From: Bacteroidales bacterium
GTDB taxonomy: Bacteria > Bacteroidota > Bacteroidia > Bacteroidales > GCA-2711565
Direction of reading: 5' to 3'
NCBI GenBank assembly: GCA_963675215.1
Contig: OY775914.1
Location: forward strand, 3,489,127 to 3,553,126
DNA: 64,000 bases
In this document: piece after piece, positions 12,192 to 17,832 of the stretch
Position numbering within the stretch: position 1 is the first letter of the stretch
How the letters are laid out: each line of letters starts with the position of its first letter
Notes under the pieces: generated by a model
What the model was told of the DNA's origin: nothing
The model's input: the letters and a program-made list of their open reading frames with translations, nothing else
Database searches by the model: none
Program-made: the position numbers and the translations under genes

Positions 12192-13796
12192 ATGAAAAAT
12201 TCAAATAGCATCACAAGCAACAAAACTAAAGTGGATGGTACAAAACAAATTGTTATCATTACAGAATCAGATGTGAATCACATGATGGATCGATATCATT
12301 ACTCAGATGATATTCGAAAAATTATTGAAAAAGAAAACCTCTTACCTACCGGATTATTAAGCAGAATTCAAAAAAACTATCCTCAGCACTCAGGTTTGAA
12401 TGAAGACATAAATTTCATGTTCACTACAAAAAACAAATATGTAGGACTTAAAGGATTTCATGAAATTGTTGAGACATTGCGAGAAAATGGTATTGATATT
12501 GGATTTATTCAGGAACGTGAACTATTCATCAAGGTATATCGATTTATGGTAACCAAGCATGTTTTGAATACCATTAACTGGAATAATTTTGCCAAGGATT
12601 CTGTTTTTCAGCTGGTCTTTCCTCAACCAGGAATGATACTTCCGGATGCAACAAAGATGTATATTGATGCAAAAAGCGAAGCGGAGAGAGAAAAAATAGT
12701 TGCGGATTACATGGAAAAAACAAATCCACATGATGGCAAACAACAATTAAACAGACCCTCTTTCGAAAATGAAAATTGCGAAACCGAAATTTTGGAAGGT
12801 AGCCAACATAAATATCCTCAATGTCAGCTAATTTTTGATAAAACAACTCAAAGTTGCTTTTCATTTTGCACCTATTGTTTTAGACACGCACAAGTTAGAG
12901 GTGATGAAGATATGTTCGTCCAAAATGAAATCAAGCCTGTACACGACTATATAAAACAACACAAAGAAGTCAGTGACATGTTACTTACAGGCGGTGATGC
13001 AGGTTATATGCCTCATGATAGACTTGAACAGTATCTGCTTCCTCTAATTGAAGATCAGGAACTAACACATGTCAGAACTTTAAGAATTGGAACCAGATCT
13101 CTTACTTTTGAACCTGAAATGTTTATTAGGAGTGAATATGATAAAACACTAAAACTTTTCCAAAAGTTAGTTGATAATGGAGTACAGGTAGTACTCATGT
13201 CACACTTTTCAACTCCTCGTGAACTATTGAACCCAAGCACAATTGCAGCCATTAGAAGGCTTAGAGCACATGGAGTAGTGATTAAAAGCCAAAGCCCTGT
13301 AATGAATCACATCAGTTTATTTACAGATGATAATGGCAAAGTTGATATTGACCGTTCAGCTCAGAATTGGATTGATTTAGGTAATATTTTCGCCATGCTT
13401 TCGATAGGATTCCATTCAATGTATTGTGCACGCCCAACCGGTGAGCATCATTATTTTACCGTTCCATTATCCGAATTGAATAAAATTTTCAGTAAAGTTT
13501 ACAGATCTTTGGCTTCTATAAACCGTCCTTCCAGATATATTACAATGACCTCTTCTGCAGGAAAAACTTCCATACTTGGAACTGCTGAGGTAAATGGAGA
13601 AAAAGTATACGCTCTGAAATTTAATGAGAGTAGAAACATGGAATGGATGGATAAAGTTTTTCTAGCCAAATACGATGAACATGAAAATACGGTAGAGAAA
13701 CTAATTCCTTTTGATACGGATCAATTCTTTTTTGAAGGTGAATTGAAACAAATTGAACAATCGCTAAATGACTCTTTAAAGAGCGGCAAGAAATAG
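12192..13796 (+). CDS. KamA-family radical-SAM/PLP amino acid 2,3-aminomutase, divergent and probably not lysine-specific
   Basis: QHKYP, CFSFCTYCFR (CxxxCxxC at 222/226/229 plus R231), LLTGGD, LRIGTR, HFSTPREL, QSPV, candidate PLP lysine in SSAGK (K458). Confidence 0.88.
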   Translation: MKNSNSITSNKTKVDGTKQIVIITESDVNHMMDRYHYSDDIRKIIEKENLLPTGLLSRIQKNYPQHSGLNEDINFMFTTKNKYVGLKGFHEIVETLRENGIDIGFIQERELFIKVYRFMVTKHVLNTINWNNFAKDSVFQLVFPQPGMILPDATKMYIDAKSEAEREKIVADYMEKTNPHDGKQQLNRPSFENENCETEILEGSQHKYPQCQLIFDKTTQSCFSFCTYCFRHAQVRGDEDMFVQNEIKPVHDYIKQHKEVSDMLLTGGDAGYMPHDRLEQYLLPLIEDQELTHVRTLRIGTRSLTFEPEMFIRSEYDKTLKLFQKLVDNGVQVVLMSHFSTPRELLNPSTIAAIRRLRAHGVVIKSQSPVMNHISLFTDDNGKVDIDRSAQNWIDLGNIFAMLSIGFHSMYCARPTGEHHYFTVPLSELNKIFSKVYRSLASINRPSRYITMTSSAGKTSILGTAEVNGEKVYALKFNESRNMEWMDKVFLAKYDEHENTVEKLIPFDTDQFFFEGELKQIEQSLNDSLKSGKK

Positions 13797-13819
13797 TTCC
13801 ATCTTTCTAATAAAAAGCT

Positions 13820-14533
13820 ATGATAAATAAAATTATTAAATCAACCTCTGAAGCCATTTCTGAAATTTTTGATGGTGCAACCGTGATGATTGGTGGTTTT
13901 GGTGAAGCAGGGAGCCCTATCGAATTAATTCATGCATTGATTGACCATGGTGCCAAAAACCTAACCGTAGTTAGCAACAATACGGGTAGCGGGCATGTTG
14001 GTCTCGCAGCATTAATTGAAAACCGACAGGTAAGCAAAATGATCTGTTCCTTTCCTCGAACAGCAAATTCGACAGTTTTTCCAGAATTATACCATGCAGG
14101 CGAAATCGAACTTGAGCTGGTTCCGCAAGGAACACTTGCTGAAAGAATAAGAGCAGGTGGAGCTGGTATTCCGGCATTCTATACTCCTGCTTCAGTAAAT
14201 ACTCCCTTAGCAGAGGGCAAAGAATTACGTGAATTTAATGGGGAAACCTTTGTGATGGAATATGGAATCAGAGCTGATTTTTCACTGGTAAAATGCAAAG
14301 CAGCCGATCGTTATGGTAATTTGATCTATAATAAGACGGCCAGAAACTTCGGCCCCATCATGTGCACGGCTGCCGAAACAACCATTGTACAAGCTAAACA
14401 GATTGTTGAACTTGGTGAATTGGATCCCGAATGTGTGATCACACCAGGTGTTTTTGTTAAGAAAGTAGTTGAAGTTGCTAATCCAACCGAAGAATCAAAA
14501 CTGGTAAAAGAAGACAGGAGGTATCCATGGTAG
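13820..14533 (+). CDS. pcaI: 3-oxoadipate CoA-transferase subunit A
   Basis: MIGGFG, SNNTG, ICSFPR, PQGTLAERIRAGGAGIPAFYT, KTARNFGP. Confidence 0.85.
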   Translation: MINKIIKSTSEAISEIFDGATVMIGGFGEAGSPIELIHALIDHGAKNLTVVSNNTGSGHVGLAALIENRQVSKMICSFPRTANSTVFPELYHAGEIELELVPQGTLAERIRAGGAGIPAFYTPASVNTPLAEGKELREFNGETFVMEYGIRADFSLVKCKAADRYGNLIYNKTARNFGPIMCTAAETTIVQAKQIVELGELDPECVITPGVFVKKVVEVANPTEESKLVKEDRRYPW

Positions 14534-15183
14534 ATTTAGAAATTTTAAAAGGATGGGATCGCAATCAAATGGCCCAGAAAACCGCACTTGATATCCAAGA
14601 TGGAGCTTATGTAAATCTGGGAATTGGAATTCCGGAGCTGGTAGCAGGATTTGTTCCTGAAGGAAGAGAAGTAATTTACCATACCGAAAACGGATTATTG
14701 GGCATGGGGCCAATTCCTGAAACAGGAGAGGAAGATCCTGAATTAATCAATGCAGGAAAGAAGAATGTAACAGCCATAAAAGGTGCATGTTATTTTCATC
14801 ATGCCGATAGTTTTACAATGATCAGAGGAAAACATATTGATTTATGTGTTTTAGGAGCTATGCAGGTTTCGGCAGATGGCGATCTTGCAAATTGGTCAAC
14901 CGGAGCTCCTGATGCAATTCCTGCCGTTGGAGGAGCCATGGATTTAGTGGCTGGAGTAAAGACAATTTTTGTAATTACACAGCACACTACAAAAAGTGGA
15001 GAACCAAAAATTGTTAAGGAGTGTACTTATCCTTTAACAGGAAAGAAAGTTGTAGACAGAATTTATACAAACCTGGCAATTATAGATGTTACTAAAAATG
15101 GGCTTTTCGTTAAAGAAATGGCACCCGACATTACTTTTGAGCAGTTGCAGCAAAGAACAGGTGCAAAGCTAAATCAATATTAA
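14527..15183 (+). CDS. pcaJ: 3-oxoadipate CoA-transferase subunit B
   Basis: YVNLGIGIP, catalytic-Glu motif HTENG, GDLANW, PAVGGAMDL, CTYPLTG; overlaps pcaI. Confidence 0.85.
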   Translation: MVDLEILKGWDRNQMAQKTALDIQDGAYVNLGIGIPELVAGFVPEGREVIYHTENGLLGMGPIPETGEEDPELINAGKKNVTAIKGACYFHHADSFTMIRGKHIDLCVLGAMQVSADGDLANWSTGAPDAIPAVGGAMDLVAGVKTIFVITQHTTKSGEPKIVKECTYPLTGKKVVDRIYTNLAIIDVTKNGLFVKEMAPDITFEQLQQRTGAKLNQY

Positions 15184-15224
15184 TTTTTAATTAACAAAAA
15201 TTTAAAATCCTATATTTATTTAAA

Positions 15225-16562: not shown

Positions 16563-16572
16563 AATTTTAGCT

Positions 16573-17775
16573 ATGACAGACGTATTCATTTGTGACGCAA
16601 TCCGCACACCGGTAGGCAAATACGGTGGCGCACTTTCTTCCATCAGAACAGACGATCTTGCTGCAATTCCAATAAAAGCCCTCATGGATAGGAATCCAAA
16701 CCTAAATTGGGAAGCTATTGATGATGTAATGATGGGATGTGCCAATCAGGCTGGTGAAGACAATCGGAATGTTGCCCGGATGTCATTACTTCTTGCCGGA
16801 TTATCCGAAACCATTCCTGGAGTCACGATCAATCGCCTCTGTGGCTCGGGCATGGATGCCATTGGTACAGCCGCCCGCGCCATTAAAGCAGGAGAAGCCA
16901 ATTTAATTATTGCAGGTGGAGTTGAAAGTATGTCGCGTGCGCCTTTGGTTATGGGAAAAGCAACAAGCGCATTTTCTCGCGAAGCTAAAATTTACGACAC
17001 CACTATCGGTTGGCGCTTTATTAATAAAGCATTTGATAAAATATACGGTACCGAACCTTTGATTTATACGGCAGAAAACATAGCAACTGAACATAAAATC
17101 AGTCGTGAAGATCAAGATAAATTCGCTTACTGGAGTCAAGAGAAAGCAGCAAAAGCTCAGAAGGACGGATCACTTGCAGAAGAAATTATTCCTGTTTTAA
17201 TTCCACAACGCAAGGGAGATCCAATCATATTTTCTGCCGATGAACATCCCAGATTTTCTCCTCTGGATAAATTAGCCGGTTTAAAATGTATCACGCATGA
17301 AAATGGAACCATTTCTGCGGGCAACTCTTCCGGAATTAATGATGGAGCAGCTGCCCTAATTATTGCTTCTGCCGAAGCAGTAAAGAAATACAACCTAAGC
17401 CCAAAAGTTAAAATCCTAGGAATGAGTGTTGCCGGAGTTCCACCACGAACTATGGGGATGGGTCCGGTTCCGGCTACCCAAAAATTATTAAAAAACTTGG
17501 GACTAACACTTGATGACATGGATCTCATCGAACTGAACGAAGCTTTTGCAGCGCAATCCTTGGGTTGCACGCGTGAACTTGGTCTGGCTGATGATGATGC
17601 ACGAATTAATCCTTTAGGTGGTGCGATTGCTTTAGGTCACCCATTAGGAATGAGCGGTGCCAGATTAATAACCTCTGCCTTTTATCAATTACAGCGAACT
17701 GAAGCTAAAAAAGCACTTTGCACTATGTGTATTGGTGTAGGTCAAGGTATTGCTGTTGTTCTTGAAAAAGTTTAA
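16573..17775 (+). CDS. pcaF: 3-oxoadipyl-CoA thiolase (PcaF/PaaJ type)
   Basis: Start reassigned to ATG 16573 (MTDVFICDAIRTP); GCANQAGEDNRNVARM, NRLCGSG, DTTIGWRF, NEAFA, GHPLG, CIGVGQG. Confidence 0.9.
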   Translation: MTDVFICDAIRTPVGKYGGALSSIRTDDLAAIPIKALMDRNPNLNWEAIDDVMMGCANQAGEDNRNVARMSLLLAGLSETIPGVTINRLCGSGMDAIGTAARAIKAGEANLIIAGGVESMSRAPLVMGKATSAFSREAKIYDTTIGWRFINKAFDKIYGTEPLIYTAENIATEHKISREDQDKFAYWSQEKAAKAQKDGSLAEEIIPVLIPQRKGDPIIFSADEHPRFSPLDKLAGLKCITHENGTISAGNSSGINDGAAALIIASAEAVKKYNLSPKVKILGMSVAGVPPRTMGMGPVPATQKLLKNLGLTLDDMDLIELNEAFAAQSLGCTRELGLADDDARINPLGGAIALGHPLGMSGARLITSAFYQLQRTEAKKALCTMCIGVGQGIAVVLEKV

Positions 17776-17806
17776 TTGTAAAACCCTTTTAAGTAATAAA
17801 GAACTG

Positions 17807-17832
17807 AAAGCTGCCAAACAGGCAGCTTTTTT
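17807..17832 (+). terminator. Intrinsic terminator closing the aminomutase-pca operon
   Basis: AAAGCTGCC-AAACA-GGCAGCTTT followed by a T run. Confidence 0.85.

What the first reader, a model, noticed from the sequence alone, without database searches (positions are those of the whole stretch)
12192..17832. Candidate new catabolic pathway: radical-SAM 2-aminoadipate 2,3-aminomutase feeding the beta-ketoadipate lower pathway
Seen: five tightly packed co-directional genes closed by one terminator: KamA-like aminomutase, PcaI, PcaJ, class-III aminotransferase, PcaF. Established: PcaIJ + PcaF convert 3-oxoadipate to succinyl-CoA + acetyl-CoA, normally downstream of aromatic ring cleavage; KamA-family enzymes move an alpha-amino group to the beta carbon. 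No ring-cleavage genes (pcaGH/B/C/D, cat) and no lysine-fermentation genes (kamDE, kdd, kce, kal) are in the window. Inference: 2-aminoadipate -> 3-aminoadipate (aminomutase) -> 3-oxoadipate (beta-transaminase) -> 3-oxoadipyl-CoA -> succinyl-CoA + acetyl-CoA. This uses every gene with no missing step, needs no O2 and loses no carbon. I know of no described 2-aminoadipate 2,3-aminomutase. An alternative is glutamate -> beta-glutamate -> 3-oxoglutarate.
Basis: partly seen in the sequence, partly recalled or inferred. Interest (0 to 1): 0.92.

Follow-up and report, generated by a model that had tools for sequence, protein, structure and literature searches.

The report
Candidate anaerobic 2-aminoadipate breakdown operon
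A five-gene operon, kept intact across several bacterial phyla, pairs an unusual radical-SAM aminomutase with a beta-transaminase and the beta-ketoadipate enzymes, and probably breaks the lysine product 2-aminoadipate down to succinate and acetyl-CoA without oxygen, a route not found in print.

Summary
Window 12192-17830 carries five tightly packed co-directional genes closed by one terminator. They are a divergent 534-aa KamA-like radical-SAM/PLP enzyme ("KamX"), a SCOT/PcaIJ-type 3-oxoacid CoA-transferase (A and B subunits), a HemL-like class-III aminotransferase (AT3) and a PcaF-grade 3-oxoadipyl-CoA thiolase.

The order is kept in 60 of 60 related loci long enough to show it, across several phyla.

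New evidence favours 2-aminoadipate as the substrate:
- KamX keeps the cluster cysteines, the carboxylate-binding Arg and the PLP Lys, but has lost both Asp residues that (recalled) hold lysine's epsilon-amine.
- In five loci the cassette sits directly behind lysine-ketoglutarate reductase (LKR) and saccharopine dehydrogenase (SDH) in one operon.
- In 301 Bacteroidales genomes, LKR occurs in 21 of 23 cassette carriers against 75 of 278 others. The Kce lysine-fermentation enzyme occurs in 0 of 23 against 51 of 278.
- HglS-like and YdiJ-like genes (2-oxoadipate to 2-oxoglutarate) lie 2.3 kb downstream.
- The genome shows no ring-cleavage or Paa genes.

AT3 is not an orthologue of the known Kat.

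Unresolved: no biochemistry exists, and the semialdehyde-to-2-aminoadipate step is unassigned. No such pathway turned up in my literature searches.

The parts
11668..12191 (.). 524-bp upstream intergenic region, presumed to hold the promoter. No regulator gene lies here, although an XRE-HTH/cupin regulator sits directly upstream of the cassette in 24 of 80 related loci.
   Evidence: Sequence read. No Rfam family reached its gathering score in the window. Regulator cluster.
12192..13796 (+). KamX, a 534-aa divergent KamA-family radical-SAM/PLP enzyme and proposed 2-aminoadipate 2,3-aminomutase. It has C222/C226/C229 (CxxxCxxC), R231 (= LAM R134), T266-G-G-D, and K458 (= LAM K337). LAM D293 aligns with A413, which is followed by invariant R414. 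LAM D330 aligns with T451, a variable column.
   Evidence: Tight orthologue group.
13820..14533 (+). 3-oxoacid CoA-transferase subunit A (PcaI/ScoA type).
   Evidence: TIGR02429 354 bits against a cut-off of 128.5. Best PDB match is succinyl-CoA:3-ketoacid CoA-transferase 3cdk at 4.6e-67; acetate/acetoacetate-type transferases score about 1e-48.
14527..15183 (+). 3-oxoacid CoA-transferase subunit B (PcaJ/ScoB type). It overlaps subunit A by 7 bp.
   Evidence: TIGR02428 311.3 bits against a cut-off of 243.55; PF01144.
15225..16562 (+). AT3, a HemL-like class-III aminotransferase and proposed 3-aminoadipate:2-oxoacid beta-transaminase. It is not HemL and not a Kat orthologue.
   Evidence: hemL TIGR00713 338.6 bits, below the cut-off of 527.3. 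PDB matches: 6k8h 8.2e-116, ForI, GSAM, beta-Phe aminotransferase 4ao9, beta-transaminase 2yku. 6K8H is the S. thermophilus beta/gamma-amino-acid transaminase (listing). Only 27-31% identical to the Kce- or thiolase-adjacent aminotransferases of Kce-positive Cloacimonadota.
16573..17775 (+). 3-oxoadipyl-CoA thiolase (PcaF/PaaJ clade), 400 aa counted from the ATG at 16573. The longest ORF starts at a GTG at 16447.
   Evidence: TIGR02430 664 bits against 597; NF006551 686.9 bits against 605. PDB matches: 8gqh 1.1e-166 and P. putida beta-ketoadipyl-CoA thiolase 6pca 6.2e-163; acetoacetyl-CoA thiolases score 1e-99 or weaker.
17806..17830 (+). Intrinsic-terminator-like hairpin (10 pairs, 5 of them G-C) followed by a T-run. 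It closes the operon.
20087..20899 (+). Neighbouring gene, not shown to be part of the operon: a DUF1338/HglS-like protein (2-oxoadipate to D-2-hydroxyglutarate family). It lies in an LplA-HglS-YdiJ operon at 19107-23833.
   Evidence: PF07063 105.6 bits against a cut-off of 25. PDB matches: 3lho 5.1e-79 and hydroxyglutarate synthase 6w1k 8.6e-37. The synteny recurs in 5 of 80 loci. Function of the family: bioRxiv 10.1101/450254.
20915..23833 (+). Neighbouring gene: a YdiJ-like FAD/Fe-S D-2-hydroxyglutarate dehydrogenase homologue.
   Evidence: NF049975 673.7 bits is the best family but lies below the equivalog cut-off of 1350. Pfam domains FAD_binding_4, FAD-oxidase_C and Fer4.

Best explanation
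The operon encodes an oxygen-independent route that takes L-2-aminoadipate, the product of saccharopine-type lysine catabolism, into central metabolism.

Proposed steps:
1. KamX, a radical-SAM/PLP 2,3-aminomutase, moves the alpha-amino group to C3 and gives 3-aminoadipate.
2. The HemL-like beta-transaminase AT3 passes that amino group to a 2-oxoacid and gives 3-oxoadipate.
3. The succinyl-CoA-dependent 3-oxoacid CoA-transferase makes 3-oxoadipyl-CoA.
4. The PcaF-type thiolase cleaves it to succinyl-CoA, which is recycled as CoA donor, and acetyl-CoA.

The net reaction is 2-aminoadipate + 2-oxoacid + CoA -> succinate + acetyl-CoA + amino acid.

A sub-variant cannot be excluded: CoA transfer first, to 3-aminoadipyl-CoA, followed by transamination of the thioester as Kat does.

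Shown here: gene content, family grades, residue conservation by alignment, synteny and co-occurrence. Inferred: every substrate and reaction.
For: 1. The cassette behaves as a unit. All five genes keep the same order in 60 of 60 loci with enough DNA, and 20 of 20 shorter loci are consistent. The record titles span Bacteroidota, Cloacimonadota, Ignavibacteriae, Acidobacteria, SAR324 and others. AT3 orthologues occur in 23 of 301 Bacteroidales genomes, essentially the KamX carriers.

2. The lower half is of C6-dicarboxylate grade. The thiolase passes both PcaF models, and its best named PDB match is P. putida beta-ketoadipyl-CoA thiolase. The transferase passes TIGR02429 and TIGR02428 and is nearest to succinyl-CoA:3-ketoacid transferases. 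The genome shows no intradiol dioxygenase and no PaaA/C that could feed it conventionally.

3. KamX is a KamA-fold enzyme. Foldseek's top hit is 2a5h at E 6e-14, with the next hit at 6e-4. C222/C226/C229, R231, T266-GGD and K458 are invariant in 29 of 29 aligned members. They align with LAM C125/C129/C132, R134, S169-GGD and K337. LAM D293 and D330 align with A413 and T451. The genome's ordinary KamA keeps both Asp residues.

4. There is a link to lysine through saccharopine. In 5 of 80 loci (L009, L011, L026, L056, L070), SDH and LKR sit directly upstream, co-directional. SDH matches PDB 1e5l at 1e-92 and the AASS SDH domain at 4e-79. LKR matches the AASS LKR domain at 1e-77. The gaps are 12-13 bp in L056, and an amino-acid permease follows in 4 of these loci.

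5. LKR orthologues occur in 21 of 23 KamX-positive against 75 of 278 KamX-negative Bacteroidales genomes. They also occur in 7 of 10 further carriers. The own genome has an LKR-SDH-SDH cluster and also lysA.

6. The cassette is independent of the known lysine fermentation. Kce is found in 0 of 23 KamX-positive against 51 of 278 KamX-negative genomes, in 0 of 5 Cloacimonadota carriers, and not in the own genome.

7. HglS-like and YdiJ-like genes, which form the 2-oxoadipate -> D-2HG -> 2-oxoglutarate pair of P. putida, start 2.3 kb downstream of the thiolase stop. They keep that position in 5 of 80 loci.

8. AT3's nearest solved relative acts on free beta- and gamma-amino acids.
Against: - No enzyme assay, labelling or expression data exist for any of the five proteins.
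- The operons carry no gene for 2-aminoadipate semialdehyde -> 2-aminoadipate. The five Cloacimonadota carriers show 0 of 5 PF00171 aldehyde dehydrogenases at E <= 1e-30. Only AOR-family enzymes, in 4 of 5, are candidates.
- LKR/SDH adjacency is seen in only 5 of 80 loci. A sixth Cloacimonadota-titled locus, L014, has another gene ending just upstream.
- Two of the 23 Bacteroidales carriers, and Ancylomarina salipaludis, have only a 34-36% LKR-like paralogue. Two MAGs (Edwardsbacteria, SAR324) show none.
- LKR is common without the cassette (75 of 278). Related genomes are not independent, so the enrichment is only indicative.
- No residue that would bind the distal carboxylate could be pinned down, because model coordinates are not exposed. 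T451 is not a conserved column. The model is of low confidence (pLDDT < 50) around residues 221-243 and 414-421.
- The roles of the LAM residues are recalled from the literature and were not verified in a held paper.
- HglS-like is only mildly enriched: 11 of 23 against 65 of 278.
- SDH also releases glutamate, so the LKR/SDH link does not fully exclude glutamate as the substrate.
Confidence: 0.55

Rival explanations
1. Glutamate route. KamX is a glutamate 2,3-aminomutase and AT3 converts beta-glutamate to 3-oxoglutarate. The product is either activated and cleaved to malonyl-CoA + acetyl-CoA, or decarboxylates to acetoacetate. The SCOT-type transferase and the thiolase then turn acetoacetate into two acetyl-CoA.
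For: - The transferase's best PDB matches are acetoacetate-using succinyl-CoA:3-ketoacid transferases.
- KamX has lost both Asp residues of the lysine pocket, as acidic-substrate aminomutases would.
- SDH in the Cloacimonadota operon releases glutamate.
Against: - The thiolase passes the PcaF equivalog cut-offs and scores far above acetoacetyl-CoA thiolases.
- KamX scores only 62.8 bits against the glutamate 2,3-aminomutase model, whose cut-off is 650.
- KamX does not show the Lys/Asn pair that I recall as the signature of glutamate 2,3-aminomutase; it has Ala and Thr at those positions.
- A dedicated link to LKR/SDH and to 2-oxoadipate genes is hard to explain for a ubiquitous amino acid.
Confidence: 0.12
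2. Same logic, different alpha-amino acid. Candidates are 2-aminopimelate, the semialdehyde (allysine) itself, or a neutral amino acid such as leucine or 2-aminobutyrate. The path would run beta-amino acid -> 3-oxoacid -> 3-oxoacyl-CoA -> shortened acyl-CoA + acetyl-CoA.
For: - Only the alpha-carboxylate, PLP and cluster residues of KamX can be mapped; the side-chain pocket is unknown.
- No aldehyde dehydrogenase was found in the five Cloacimonadota carriers, which would fit direct use of the semialdehyde.
- Kat shows that HemL-like beta-transaminases can be promiscuous in the acyl part (PMC3149608, section 7).
Against: - The thiolase is of PcaF grade and the transferase of SCOT/PcaIJ type.
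- The semialdehyde exists largely as a cyclic imine, which lacks the free alpha-amine a PLP aminomutase needs (established chemistry, recalled).
- Nothing in the conserved context points to branched-chain or C4 amino acids.
Confidence: 0.18
3. Lower branch of the known variant lysine fermentation. AT3 would be Kat (3-aminobutyryl-CoA aminotransferase), the transferase would be AtoAD, and the thiolase an acetoacetyl-CoA thiolase. KamX would be an odd lysine 2,3-aminomutase.
For: - Perret et al. 2011 (PMC3149608, sections 5, 7 and 9 read) describe a HemL-like aminotransferase next to a thiolase in Ca. Cloacamonas acidaminovorans. They also describe a CoA-transferase that activates acetoacetate.
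- The architecture is similar.
Against: - Kce was not found in the own closed genome, in 0 of 23 Bacteroidales carriers and in 0 of 5 Cloacimonadota carriers.
- AT3 orthologues (E <= 1e-80) were found in only 1 of 101 Cloacimonadota genomes, the query's own, although 67 of 101 carry Kce.
- In five Kce-positive genomes the best AT3 homologue is 27-31% identical. It lies next to Kce in four of them. A neighbouring thiolase, seen in three of them, is 39-43% identical to ours.
- KamX lacks the two Asp residues of the lysine pocket.
Confidence: 0.03
4. Biosynthetic direction: succinyl-CoA + acetyl-CoA -> 3-oxoadipate -> 3-aminoadipate -> 2-aminoadipate, feeding lysine synthesis via saccharopine.
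For: - All five reactions are in principle reversible.
- LKR and SDH homologues are biosynthetic in fungi (PDB names).
Against: - The own genome has lysA of the diaminopimelate route above its cut-off.
- No aminoadipate reductase lies in any conserved context.
- An amino-acid permease follows the operon in 4 loci.
- Thiolytic condensation is unfavourable (established knowledge).
Confidence: 0.04

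Closest known systems
Lysine 2,3-aminomutase KamA (C. subterminale, PDB 2A5H) and its relatives the glutamate and arginine 2,3-aminomutases and EpmB
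   Same: - Same fold: Foldseek's top hit.
- CxxxCxxC cluster motif and GGD SAM motif.
- The Arg aligned with the carboxylate-binding R134, and the Lys aligned with the PLP-binding K337.
   Different: - 534 aa, with about 100 extra N-terminal residues.
- Scores 57-82 bits against every KamA-family model, far below all cut-offs.
- Both Asp residues of the lysine pocket are replaced.
- It forms its own tight orthologue group. The best full-length representative at 50% clustering is 62% identical (785 bits), and the next full-length one is 39% identical (324 bits).
Beta-ketoadipate lower pathway (PcaIJ 3-oxoadipate:succinyl-CoA transferase + PcaF thiolase)
   Same: The transferase and the thiolase pass the corresponding NCBIfam models. 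The thiolase's best named PDB match is P. putida PcaF.
   Different: The pair is not fed by aromatic ring cleavage or by the phenylacetate pathway; neither was found in the genome. It is fused into one operon with an aminomutase and a beta-transaminase.
Variant lysine fermentation: Kat (3-aminobutyryl-CoA aminotransferase) + AtoAD + acetoacetyl-CoA thiolase (Perret et al. 2011, PMC3149608)
   Same: The same logic applies: a HemL-like beta-transaminase makes a 3-oxo compound that a thiolase cleaves, with a family-I CoA-transferase alongside, all in lysine catabolism of Cloacimonadota and Bacteroidetes.
   Different: - AT3 is only 27-31% identical to the Kat-type enzymes of Kce-positive genomes, and the thiolase only 39-43%.
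- Cassette carriers lack Kce.
- Kat needs a thioester substrate. AT3's nearest solved relative uses free acids.
Saccharopine pathway with the canonical fates of 2-aminoadipate: 2-oxoadipate -> glutaryl-CoA, or HglS/YdiJ -> 2-oxoglutarate (P. putida, bioRxiv 10.1101/450254)
   Same: The upstream supply is the same. LKR and SDH homologues are operon-linked or co-occurring. HglS-like and YdiJ-like genes lie next door.
   Different: The proposed fate is new. The amine shifts to C3 and the C6 chain is cleaved to C4 + C2 with no decarboxylation and no O2. HglS, by contrast, is an Fe(II)-dependent oxygenase according to the title of PMC7286885 (listing).
Beta-amino-acid transaminases of the GSAM-like subgroup (S. 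thermophilus 6K8H, V. paradoxus 4AO9, Mesorhizobium 2YKU)
   Same: These are AT3's best solved relatives. They act on beta-amino acids (listing; PMC3149608 section 7).
   Different: The known ones were characterised mainly on aromatic or simple aliphatic beta-amino acids. A dicarboxylic beta-amino acid substrate is inferred here, not shown.

Membership tests
KamA family radical-SAM aminomutases (TIGR00238) | Whole-protein score above the family cut-off | tested here: not met
   81.5 bits against 199.2. The Lys, Glu, Arg and EpmB equivalogs score 57-70 bits against cut-offs of 369-650. Pfam Radical_SAM scores 24.3 bits against 29.5.
KamA family radical-SAM aminomutases (TIGR00238) | CxxxCxxC [4Fe-4S] motif and GGD/E SAM motif | tested here: met
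   C222, C226, C229 and T266-G267-G268-D269 are invariant in 29 of 29 sequences. They align with LAM C125/C129/C132 and S169-GGD.
KamA family radical-SAM aminomutases (TIGR00238) | PLP-binding lysine and alpha-carboxylate-binding arginine | tested here: met
   K458 aligns with K337, and R231 with R134, by hhalign (98.2% probability) and phmmer. Both are invariant. The roles of the LAM residues are recalled, not checked in a held paper.
KamA family radical-SAM aminomutases (TIGR00238) | KamA fold | tested here: met
   AF2 model with pLDDT 77.3 and pTM 0.80. Foldseek's top hit is 2a5h at E 6.2e-14 over 418 columns; the next hit is at 5.7e-4.
Lysine 2,3-aminomutase (TIGR03820) | Asp293 and Asp330, which bind the epsilon-ammonium (roles recalled) | tested here: not met
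   A413 and T451 stand at the aligned positions. The genome's ordinary KamA keeps both Asp residues.
3-oxoadipyl-CoA thiolase PcaF (TIGR02430 / NF006551) | Score above the equivalog and subfamily cut-offs | tested here: met
   664 bits against 597 and 686.9 bits against 605. PDB 6pca beta-ketoadipyl-CoA thiolase at 6.2e-163.
3-oxoacid CoA-transferase A/B (PcaIJ/ScoAB; TIGR02429, TIGR02428) | Both subunits above cut-off | tested here: met
   354 bits against 128.5 and 311.3 bits against 243.55.
3-oxoacid CoA-transferase A/B (PcaIJ/ScoAB; TIGR02429, TIGR02428) | 3-oxoadipate rather than acetoacetate as the substrate | not testable with these tools
   The subfamily models cover both. The best PDB matches are acetoacetate-type SCOTs.
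Glutamate-1-semialdehyde 2,1-aminomutase HemL (TIGR00713) | Score above the equivalog cut-off | tested here: not met
   338.6 bits against 527.3.
Kat, 3-aminobutyryl-CoA aminotransferase (Perret 2011) | Orthology to the HemL-like gene beside Kce or a thiolase in lysine-fermenting Cloacimonadota/Bacteroidetes | tested here: not met
   The best homologue in 5 Kce-positive Cloacimonadota genomes is 27-31% identical. No AT3 orthologue at E <= 1e-80 was found in 100 of 101 Cloacimonadota genomes.
Kce-type lysine fermentation pathway | [quoted passage not shown] | tested here: not met
   0 hits in the own genome. 0 of 23 Bacteroidales carriers. 0 of 5 Cloacimonadota carriers.
Saccharopine pathway of lysine catabolism | LKR and SDH present and linked to the cassette | tested here: inconclusive
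   - Operon-linked in 5 of 80 loci.
- LKR present in 21 of 23 against 75 of 278 genomes.
- The own genome has an LKR-SDH-SDH cluster 1.3 Mb away.
- The aminoadipate-semialdehyde dehydrogenase is unassigned.

The most novel reading that the evidence does not exclude
KamX is the first 2-aminoadipate 2,3-aminomutase. Together with LKR and SDH, the cassette forms a complete oxygen-independent, carbon-conserving 'saccharopine/beta-aminoadipate' pathway: lysine -> 2-aminoadipate -> 3-aminoadipate -> 3-oxoadipate -> succinate + acetyl-CoA. The cassette has spread by horizontal transfer among anaerobic Bacteroidales, Cloacimonadota, Ignavibacteria and others. It acts as the alternative to Kce-type lysine fermentation, with which it was never found together in the genomes searched. 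In this lineage it also acts as the anoxic counterpart of the O2-dependent HglS/YdiJ branch encoded next door.
Probability: 0.45. Interest if true: 0.88.

Novelty: new variant of a known kind. Interest (0 to 1): 0.8.

Why it matters
If the reading is right, it matters in several ways.
- It adds a new substrate class, a dicarboxylic C6 amino acid, to the small set of radical-SAM 2,3-aminomutases.
- It gives the beta-ketoadipate enzymes a non-aromatic feed.
- It supplies a missing answer to how strict anaerobes that carry LKR and SDH dispose of 2-aminoadipate without 2-oxoadipate dehydrogenase, glutaryl-CoA dehydrogenase or an oxygenase.
- It would correct the annotation of more than a thousand proteins now labelled 'hypothetical protein', 'lysine 2,3-aminomutase', 'glutamate-1-semialdehyde aminomutase' or 'aspartate aminotransferase family protein'.
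- It would change lysine-fermentation budgets in digesters and sediments.
- It offers enzymes for making 3-aminoadipate or, run in reverse, bio-based C6 building blocks.

The hypothesis is directly testable with five soluble proteins and one cultured carrier, Ancylomarina salipaludis (L067).

Tried and rejected
- Rfam: no family reached its gathering score anywhere in the window, so no riboswitch clue.
- Promoter-like sites were no more frequent than in shuffles.
- RNA evidence: no RNA holder was listed among the 7 runs found.
I used Kce-positive Cloacimonadota genomes as stand-ins instead. Figure 2 and the supplements of PMC3149608 could not be seen. They may show whether a 'hypothetical protein' in the Cloacamonas cluster resembles KamX.
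- LAM residue roles: I tried to verify the roles of R134, D293, D330 and K337 in held papers. The search found nothing relevant, two DOIs were not held and one review had no mention. The roles remain recalled.
- Literature on such a pathway: no paper describes 3-aminoadipate metabolism or an aminoadipate aminomutase. The hits were metabolomics listings, a meteorite study and unrelated genomics. Subscription-only papers are not covered.
- Second-tier KamX-like family: it is 34-40% identical, with open frames of about 430-500 aa, and occurs in about 50 of 301 Bacteroidales genomes. In five regions fetched to examine this paralogue (a sixth held a true cassette), it stands alone in varying contexts and gave no functional clue.
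- HglS-like co-occurrence is only mild: 11 of 23 against 65 of 278. An earlier count said 12 of 23 and 64 of 278; the recount here is the correct one.
- Candidates for the aminoadipate-semialdehyde dehydrogenase in the own genome are two TIGR01236-type paralogues and one unassigned ALDH. None could be singled out.
- Model coordinates are not exposed, so no pocket analysis or docking was possible.
- The fetched loci are only the best 80 of the 246 relatives found.

Full report
OBSERVATION. The window lies at 3,489,127-3,553,126 of a closed 4.05-Mb, roughly 34% G+C genome. Titles of near-identical records place it in the Bacteroidales. Between 12192 and 17830 there are five co-directional ORFs separated by 23 bp, a 7-bp overlap, 41 bp and 10 bp. 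A 10-pair hairpin with a T-run at 17806-17830 closes them. Upstream, on the other strand, lie a CCA-adding enzyme and MiaA. The 524-bp leader has no Rfam match.

The five products are as follows.
- KamX is a 534-aa protein that touches the KamA family only weakly: TIGR00238 81.5 bits against a cut-off of 199.2, and Pfam Radical_SAM below its threshold.
- The two subunits of a family-I 3-oxoacid CoA-transferase both score above the TIGR02429 and TIGR02428 cut-offs.
- AT3 is a class-III aminotransferase whose best model is HemL, but far below cut-off.
- The thiolase passes both 3-oxoadipyl-CoA thiolase models (664 bits against 597; 687 bits against 605).

IS THE LINKAGE REAL? A scan of one genome per prokaryote species found 246 relatives of KamX, of which the best 80 loci were fetched. 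In all 60 loci with at least 4300 bp downstream, the five genes occur in the same order and on the same strand. The median gaps between the tblastn match ends are 8-70 bp. The 20 shorter loci show every gene that fits. Record titles span Bacteroidales, Cloacimonadota, Ignavibacteriae, Balneolales, Krumholzibacteriia, Acidobacteria, SAR324, Edwardsbacteria and the cultured Ancylomarina salipaludis. Protein identities to the window's own proteins stay at 57-95%, which suggests a laterally mobile cassette. In a fixed sample of 301 Bacteroidales genomes, KamX orthologues (E <= 1e-198) occur in 23. AT3 orthologues (E <= 1e-90) also occur in 23. The two sets differ only by one congeneric pair of fragmented assemblies, where the genes sit at contig ends. 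No other gene is generally linked. An XRE-HTH/cupin regulator lies directly upstream in 24 of 80 loci, but not in this window.

THE AMINOMUTASE. KamX belongs to a large but tight orthologue group. A search of 5.8 billion proteins gave 1605 hits, and the best 120 are all 65-100% identical and 513-573 aa long. They are named 'hypothetical protein' or 'lysine 2,3-aminomutase' by their sources. At 50% clustering the group collapses to one full-length representative (62% identity, 785 bits), and the next full-length protein is 39% identical (324 bits).

An AlphaFold model (pLDDT 77.3, pTM 0.80) has lysine 2,3-aminomutase 2A5H as its only strong structural match: E 6e-14 over 418 columns, with the next hit at 6e-4. 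In an alignment of 29 members, C222/C226/C229, R231, T266-G-G-D and K458 are invariant.

A phmmer alignment to 2A5H, and a profile alignment to the genome's own ordinary KamA, place these on LAM C125/C129/C132, R134, S169-GGD and K337. The ordinary KamA itself aligns end to end with 2A5H and so supplies the numbering. From memory of the LAM literature, which I could not verify in held papers, these residues bind the cluster, the substrate carboxylate, SAM and PLP.

The same alignment puts A413 and T451 at LAM D293 and D330, the two residues I recall as holding lysine's epsilon-ammonium. A413 is followed by invariant R414, and T451 is a variable column. The ordinary KamA at 2.41 Mb keeps both Asp residues. 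KamX is therefore best read as a 2,3-aminomutase of an alpha-amino acid whose side chain is not basic.

THE LOWER HALF. The thiolase's best named PDB match is P. putida beta-ketoadipyl-CoA thiolase (6pca, 6e-163). An unnamed 'Thiolase' (8gqh, 1e-166) ranks first, and acetoacetyl-CoA thiolases follow at 1e-99 or weaker. Transferase subunit A is nearest to succinyl-CoA:3-ketoacid transferases (3cdk, 4.6e-67). Acetate/acetoacetate transferases score about 1e-48. The whole genome shows no intradiol dioxygenase (PF00775) and no PaaA/C (PF05138), with ringing controls in both searches. The usual sources of 3-oxoadipyl-CoA are therefore not found. AT3's best solved relatives are 6K8H (8e-116), ForI, GSAMs and the beta-phenylalanine and beta-transaminases 4AO9 and 2YKU. 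According to the title and abstract of PMC10589169, seen in a search listing, 6K8H is a Sphaerobacter thermophilus transaminase for beta- and gamma-amino acids.

WHICH AMINO ACID? Four further lines point to 2-aminoadipate.

First, LKR and SDH sit in the same operon in five loci (L009, L011, L026, L056, L070). Four of these are titled Cloacimonadota. The two genes lie directly upstream and co-directional, with gaps of 12-13 bp in L056. One is a strong homologue of saccharopine reductase and the SDH domain of human AASS (1e-92 and 4e-79). The other is a strong homologue of the LKR domain of AASS (1e-77). An amino-acid permease follows the thiolase in four of these loci. A sixth Cloacimonadota-titled locus, L014, has a different gene ending just upstream.

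Second, the co-occurrence counts agree. In the 301 Bacteroidales genomes, LKR orthologues (E <= 1e-130, by my count of the listed rows) occur in 96. That is 21 of the 23 KamX carriers against 75 of the 278 others. The two exceptions have a 36% LKR-like paralogue, in one case on the same contig as the cassette. Of ten further carriers, 7 have an LKR orthologue (E <= 1e-120), A. salipaludis has only the weaker paralogue, and two MAGs have none. The own genome has an LKR-SDH-SDH cluster at 2,170,082-2,174,348. It also has lysA of the diaminopimelate route, so these genes are probably catabolic. Related genomes are not independent, so these ratios are indicative only.

Third, the cassette excludes the known lysine fermentation. 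Kce (PF05853) is in 51 of 301 Bacteroidales genomes but in 0 of the 23 carriers. It is in 0 of the 5 Cloacimonadota carriers and absent from the own genome. KamD was also not found, but that search had no positive control.

Fourth, an LplA-HglS-like-YdiJ-like operon (19107-23833) starts 1.3 kb after the thiolase, and its HglS-like gene starts 2.3 kb after it. The 270-aa protein matches PF07063 and hydroxyglutarate synthase 6W1K (8.6e-37). The 972-aa protein has YdiJ D-2-hydroxyglutarate dehydrogenase as its best NCBIfam model, although below the equivalog cut-off. In P. putida this pair converts 2-oxoadipate, made from L-2-aminoadipate, to 2-oxoglutarate (abstract and passages of bioRxiv 10.1101/450254). 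The synteny recurs in 5 of 80 loci, down to 71% KamX identity; in L005 the HglS-like gene is fragmented. Genome-wide the association is mild: 11 of 23 against 65 of 278.

RELATION TO KAT. Perret et al. 2011 (PMC3149608; sections 5, 7 and 9 and passages read) showed three things. A HemL-like enzyme next to a thiolase in Ca. Cloacamonas acidaminovorans is a 3-aminobutyryl-CoA aminotransferase (Kat). It accepts only thioesters. It replaces Kal in a variant lysine fermentation. This looked like a possible identity for AT3, so I tested it.

Among 101 Cloacimonadota genomes, 67 carry Kce, but only the query's own genome has an AT3 orthologue at E <= 1e-80. In five Kce-positive genomes the best AT3 homologue is 27-31% identical. 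It lies beside Kce in four of them. A thiolase that is only 39-43% identical to ours lies beside it in three. AT3 is therefore a different subfamily, and the cassette is a parallel system rather than the Kat branch. Kat does show that a HemL-like enzyme can act after CoA activation. The order 'CoA transfer, then transamination' therefore stays open.

MECHANISM PROPOSED. The steps are:
1. 2-aminoadipate -> 3-aminoadipate (KamX).
2. 3-aminoadipate -> 3-oxoadipate (AT3).
3. 3-oxoadipate -> 3-oxoadipyl-CoA (transferase, with succinyl-CoA as donor).
4. 3-oxoadipyl-CoA -> succinyl-CoA + acetyl-CoA (thiolase).

All steps are inferred. What is shown is family grade, residue conservation, synteny and co-occurrence. 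I put this at 0.55.

WHAT SPEAKS AGAINST IT.
- No operon carries a dehydrogenase for 2-aminoadipate semialdehyde.
- The own genome has four ALDHs elsewhere, two of them P5C-dehydrogenase paralogues. The five Cloacimonadota carriers, however, show 0 of 5 PF00171 hits at E <= 1e-30. Only aldehyde:ferredoxin oxidoreductases, in 4 of 5, are candidates. The completeness of those MAGs is not given.
- LKR/SDH adjacency is confined to one lineage.
- SDH also yields glutamate, so the glutamate route (0.12) is weakened mainly by the PcaF-grade thiolase and the 2-oxoadipate neighbours.
- Another amino acid using the same logic (0.18) cannot be excluded without assays.
- The Kat-type reading (0.03) and a biosynthetic direction (0.04) are unlikely, for the reasons above.

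NOVELTY. Seven full-text searches found no description of 3-aminoadipate metabolism, of an aminoadipate aminomutase, or of this gene combination. They covered about 8.1 million open PMC papers and 0.36 million preprints. NCBIfam (June 2026) and Pfam have no model for KamX. Subscription-only literature and supplements were not searchable. I rate this a new variant of known kinds: a radical-SAM 2,3-aminomutase, a beta-transaminase and the beta-ketoadipate enzymes, assembled into a pathway not found in print.

VERDICT. Interest is 0.8.

Noticed in passing
window 19107-23833 (+): A tightly packed operon of lipoate-protein ligase (TIGR00545 above cut-off), a 270-aa DUF1338/HglS-like protein and a 972-aa YdiJ-like FAD/Fe-S dehydrogenase. 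It looks like a 2-oxoadipate -> D-2-hydroxyglutarate -> 2-oxoglutarate branch next to the cassette. Why a lipoate ligase is co-transcribed is unexplained.
   Followed up: partly
window 17903-18364 (+) and 18357-18944 (-): Two ORFs of 153 and 195 aa, with no Pfam or NCBIfam match, lie between the cassette and the LplA operon. Homologues lie in that position in four (195-aa ORF) or five (153-aa ORF) of the five loci that share the downstream synteny (L001, L002, L005, L007, L042). The 195-aa ORF also has homologues upstream of the cassette in L025 and L051.
   Followed up: no
G000:C1:2414808-2420389 (locus L085 7809-13390): An ordinary KamA (423 aa) keeps both Asp residues of the lysine pocket. 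It is followed by a 583-aa protein without family, two D-Ala-D-Ala-ligase-like ATP-grasp enzymes and a GNAT acetyltransferase. This may be a beta-lysine-containing peptide or solute cluster, unrelated to the cassette.
   Followed up: no
G000:C1:2971955-2974213 (locus L086 5956-8214) and 2970106-2971737: A third KamA-family protein of 752 aa (TIGR00238 154.8 bits, below cut-off) has a roughly 230-aa N-terminal extension. It is divergently placed beside one of two TIGR01236-type P5C-dehydrogenase paralogues.
   Followed up: no
G000:C1:2170082-2174348 (locus L090 6082-10348): An LKR-SDH-SDH cluster holds two saccharopine-dehydrogenase paralogues, 37% and 46% identical to the Cloacimonadota SDH. 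The role of the second copy is unknown.
   Followed up: partly
Bacteroidales genomes, e.g. L097 9030-10361, L098 9113-10420, L099 9360-10694, L100 9161-10468, L102 9123-10463: A second KamX-like family is 34-40% identical (35-40% in the full-library listing), has open frames of about 430-500 aa and lacks the first 100 or so residues. It occurs in about 50 of 301 Bacteroidales genomes as a stand-alone gene in varying contexts. Its function is unknown.
   Followed up: partly
L006 3120-3686 and 23 other loci: An XRE-type HTH + cupin regulator of about 184 aa sits directly upstream of KamX on the same strand in 24 of 80 loci. It is a likely ligand-sensing regulator of the cassette, and it is absent from this window.
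   Followed up: partly
window 11822-11965 (+): A 47-codon ORF lies in the leader between the CCA-adding enzyme gene and KamX. There is no evidence that it is expressed.
   Followed up: no
window 3859-7047 (+), 7776-8360 (-): A 1062-aa TPR + CHAT-domain protein, and an ECF-type sigma factor with a TPR protein downstream of it. These are unrelated to the finding.
   Followed up: no
G058, G076, L005 17918-18280: A few carriers show in-frame stops or fragmentation: KamX in G058, AT3 in G076 and the HglS-like gene in L005. These may be decay or assembly errors.
   Followed up: no
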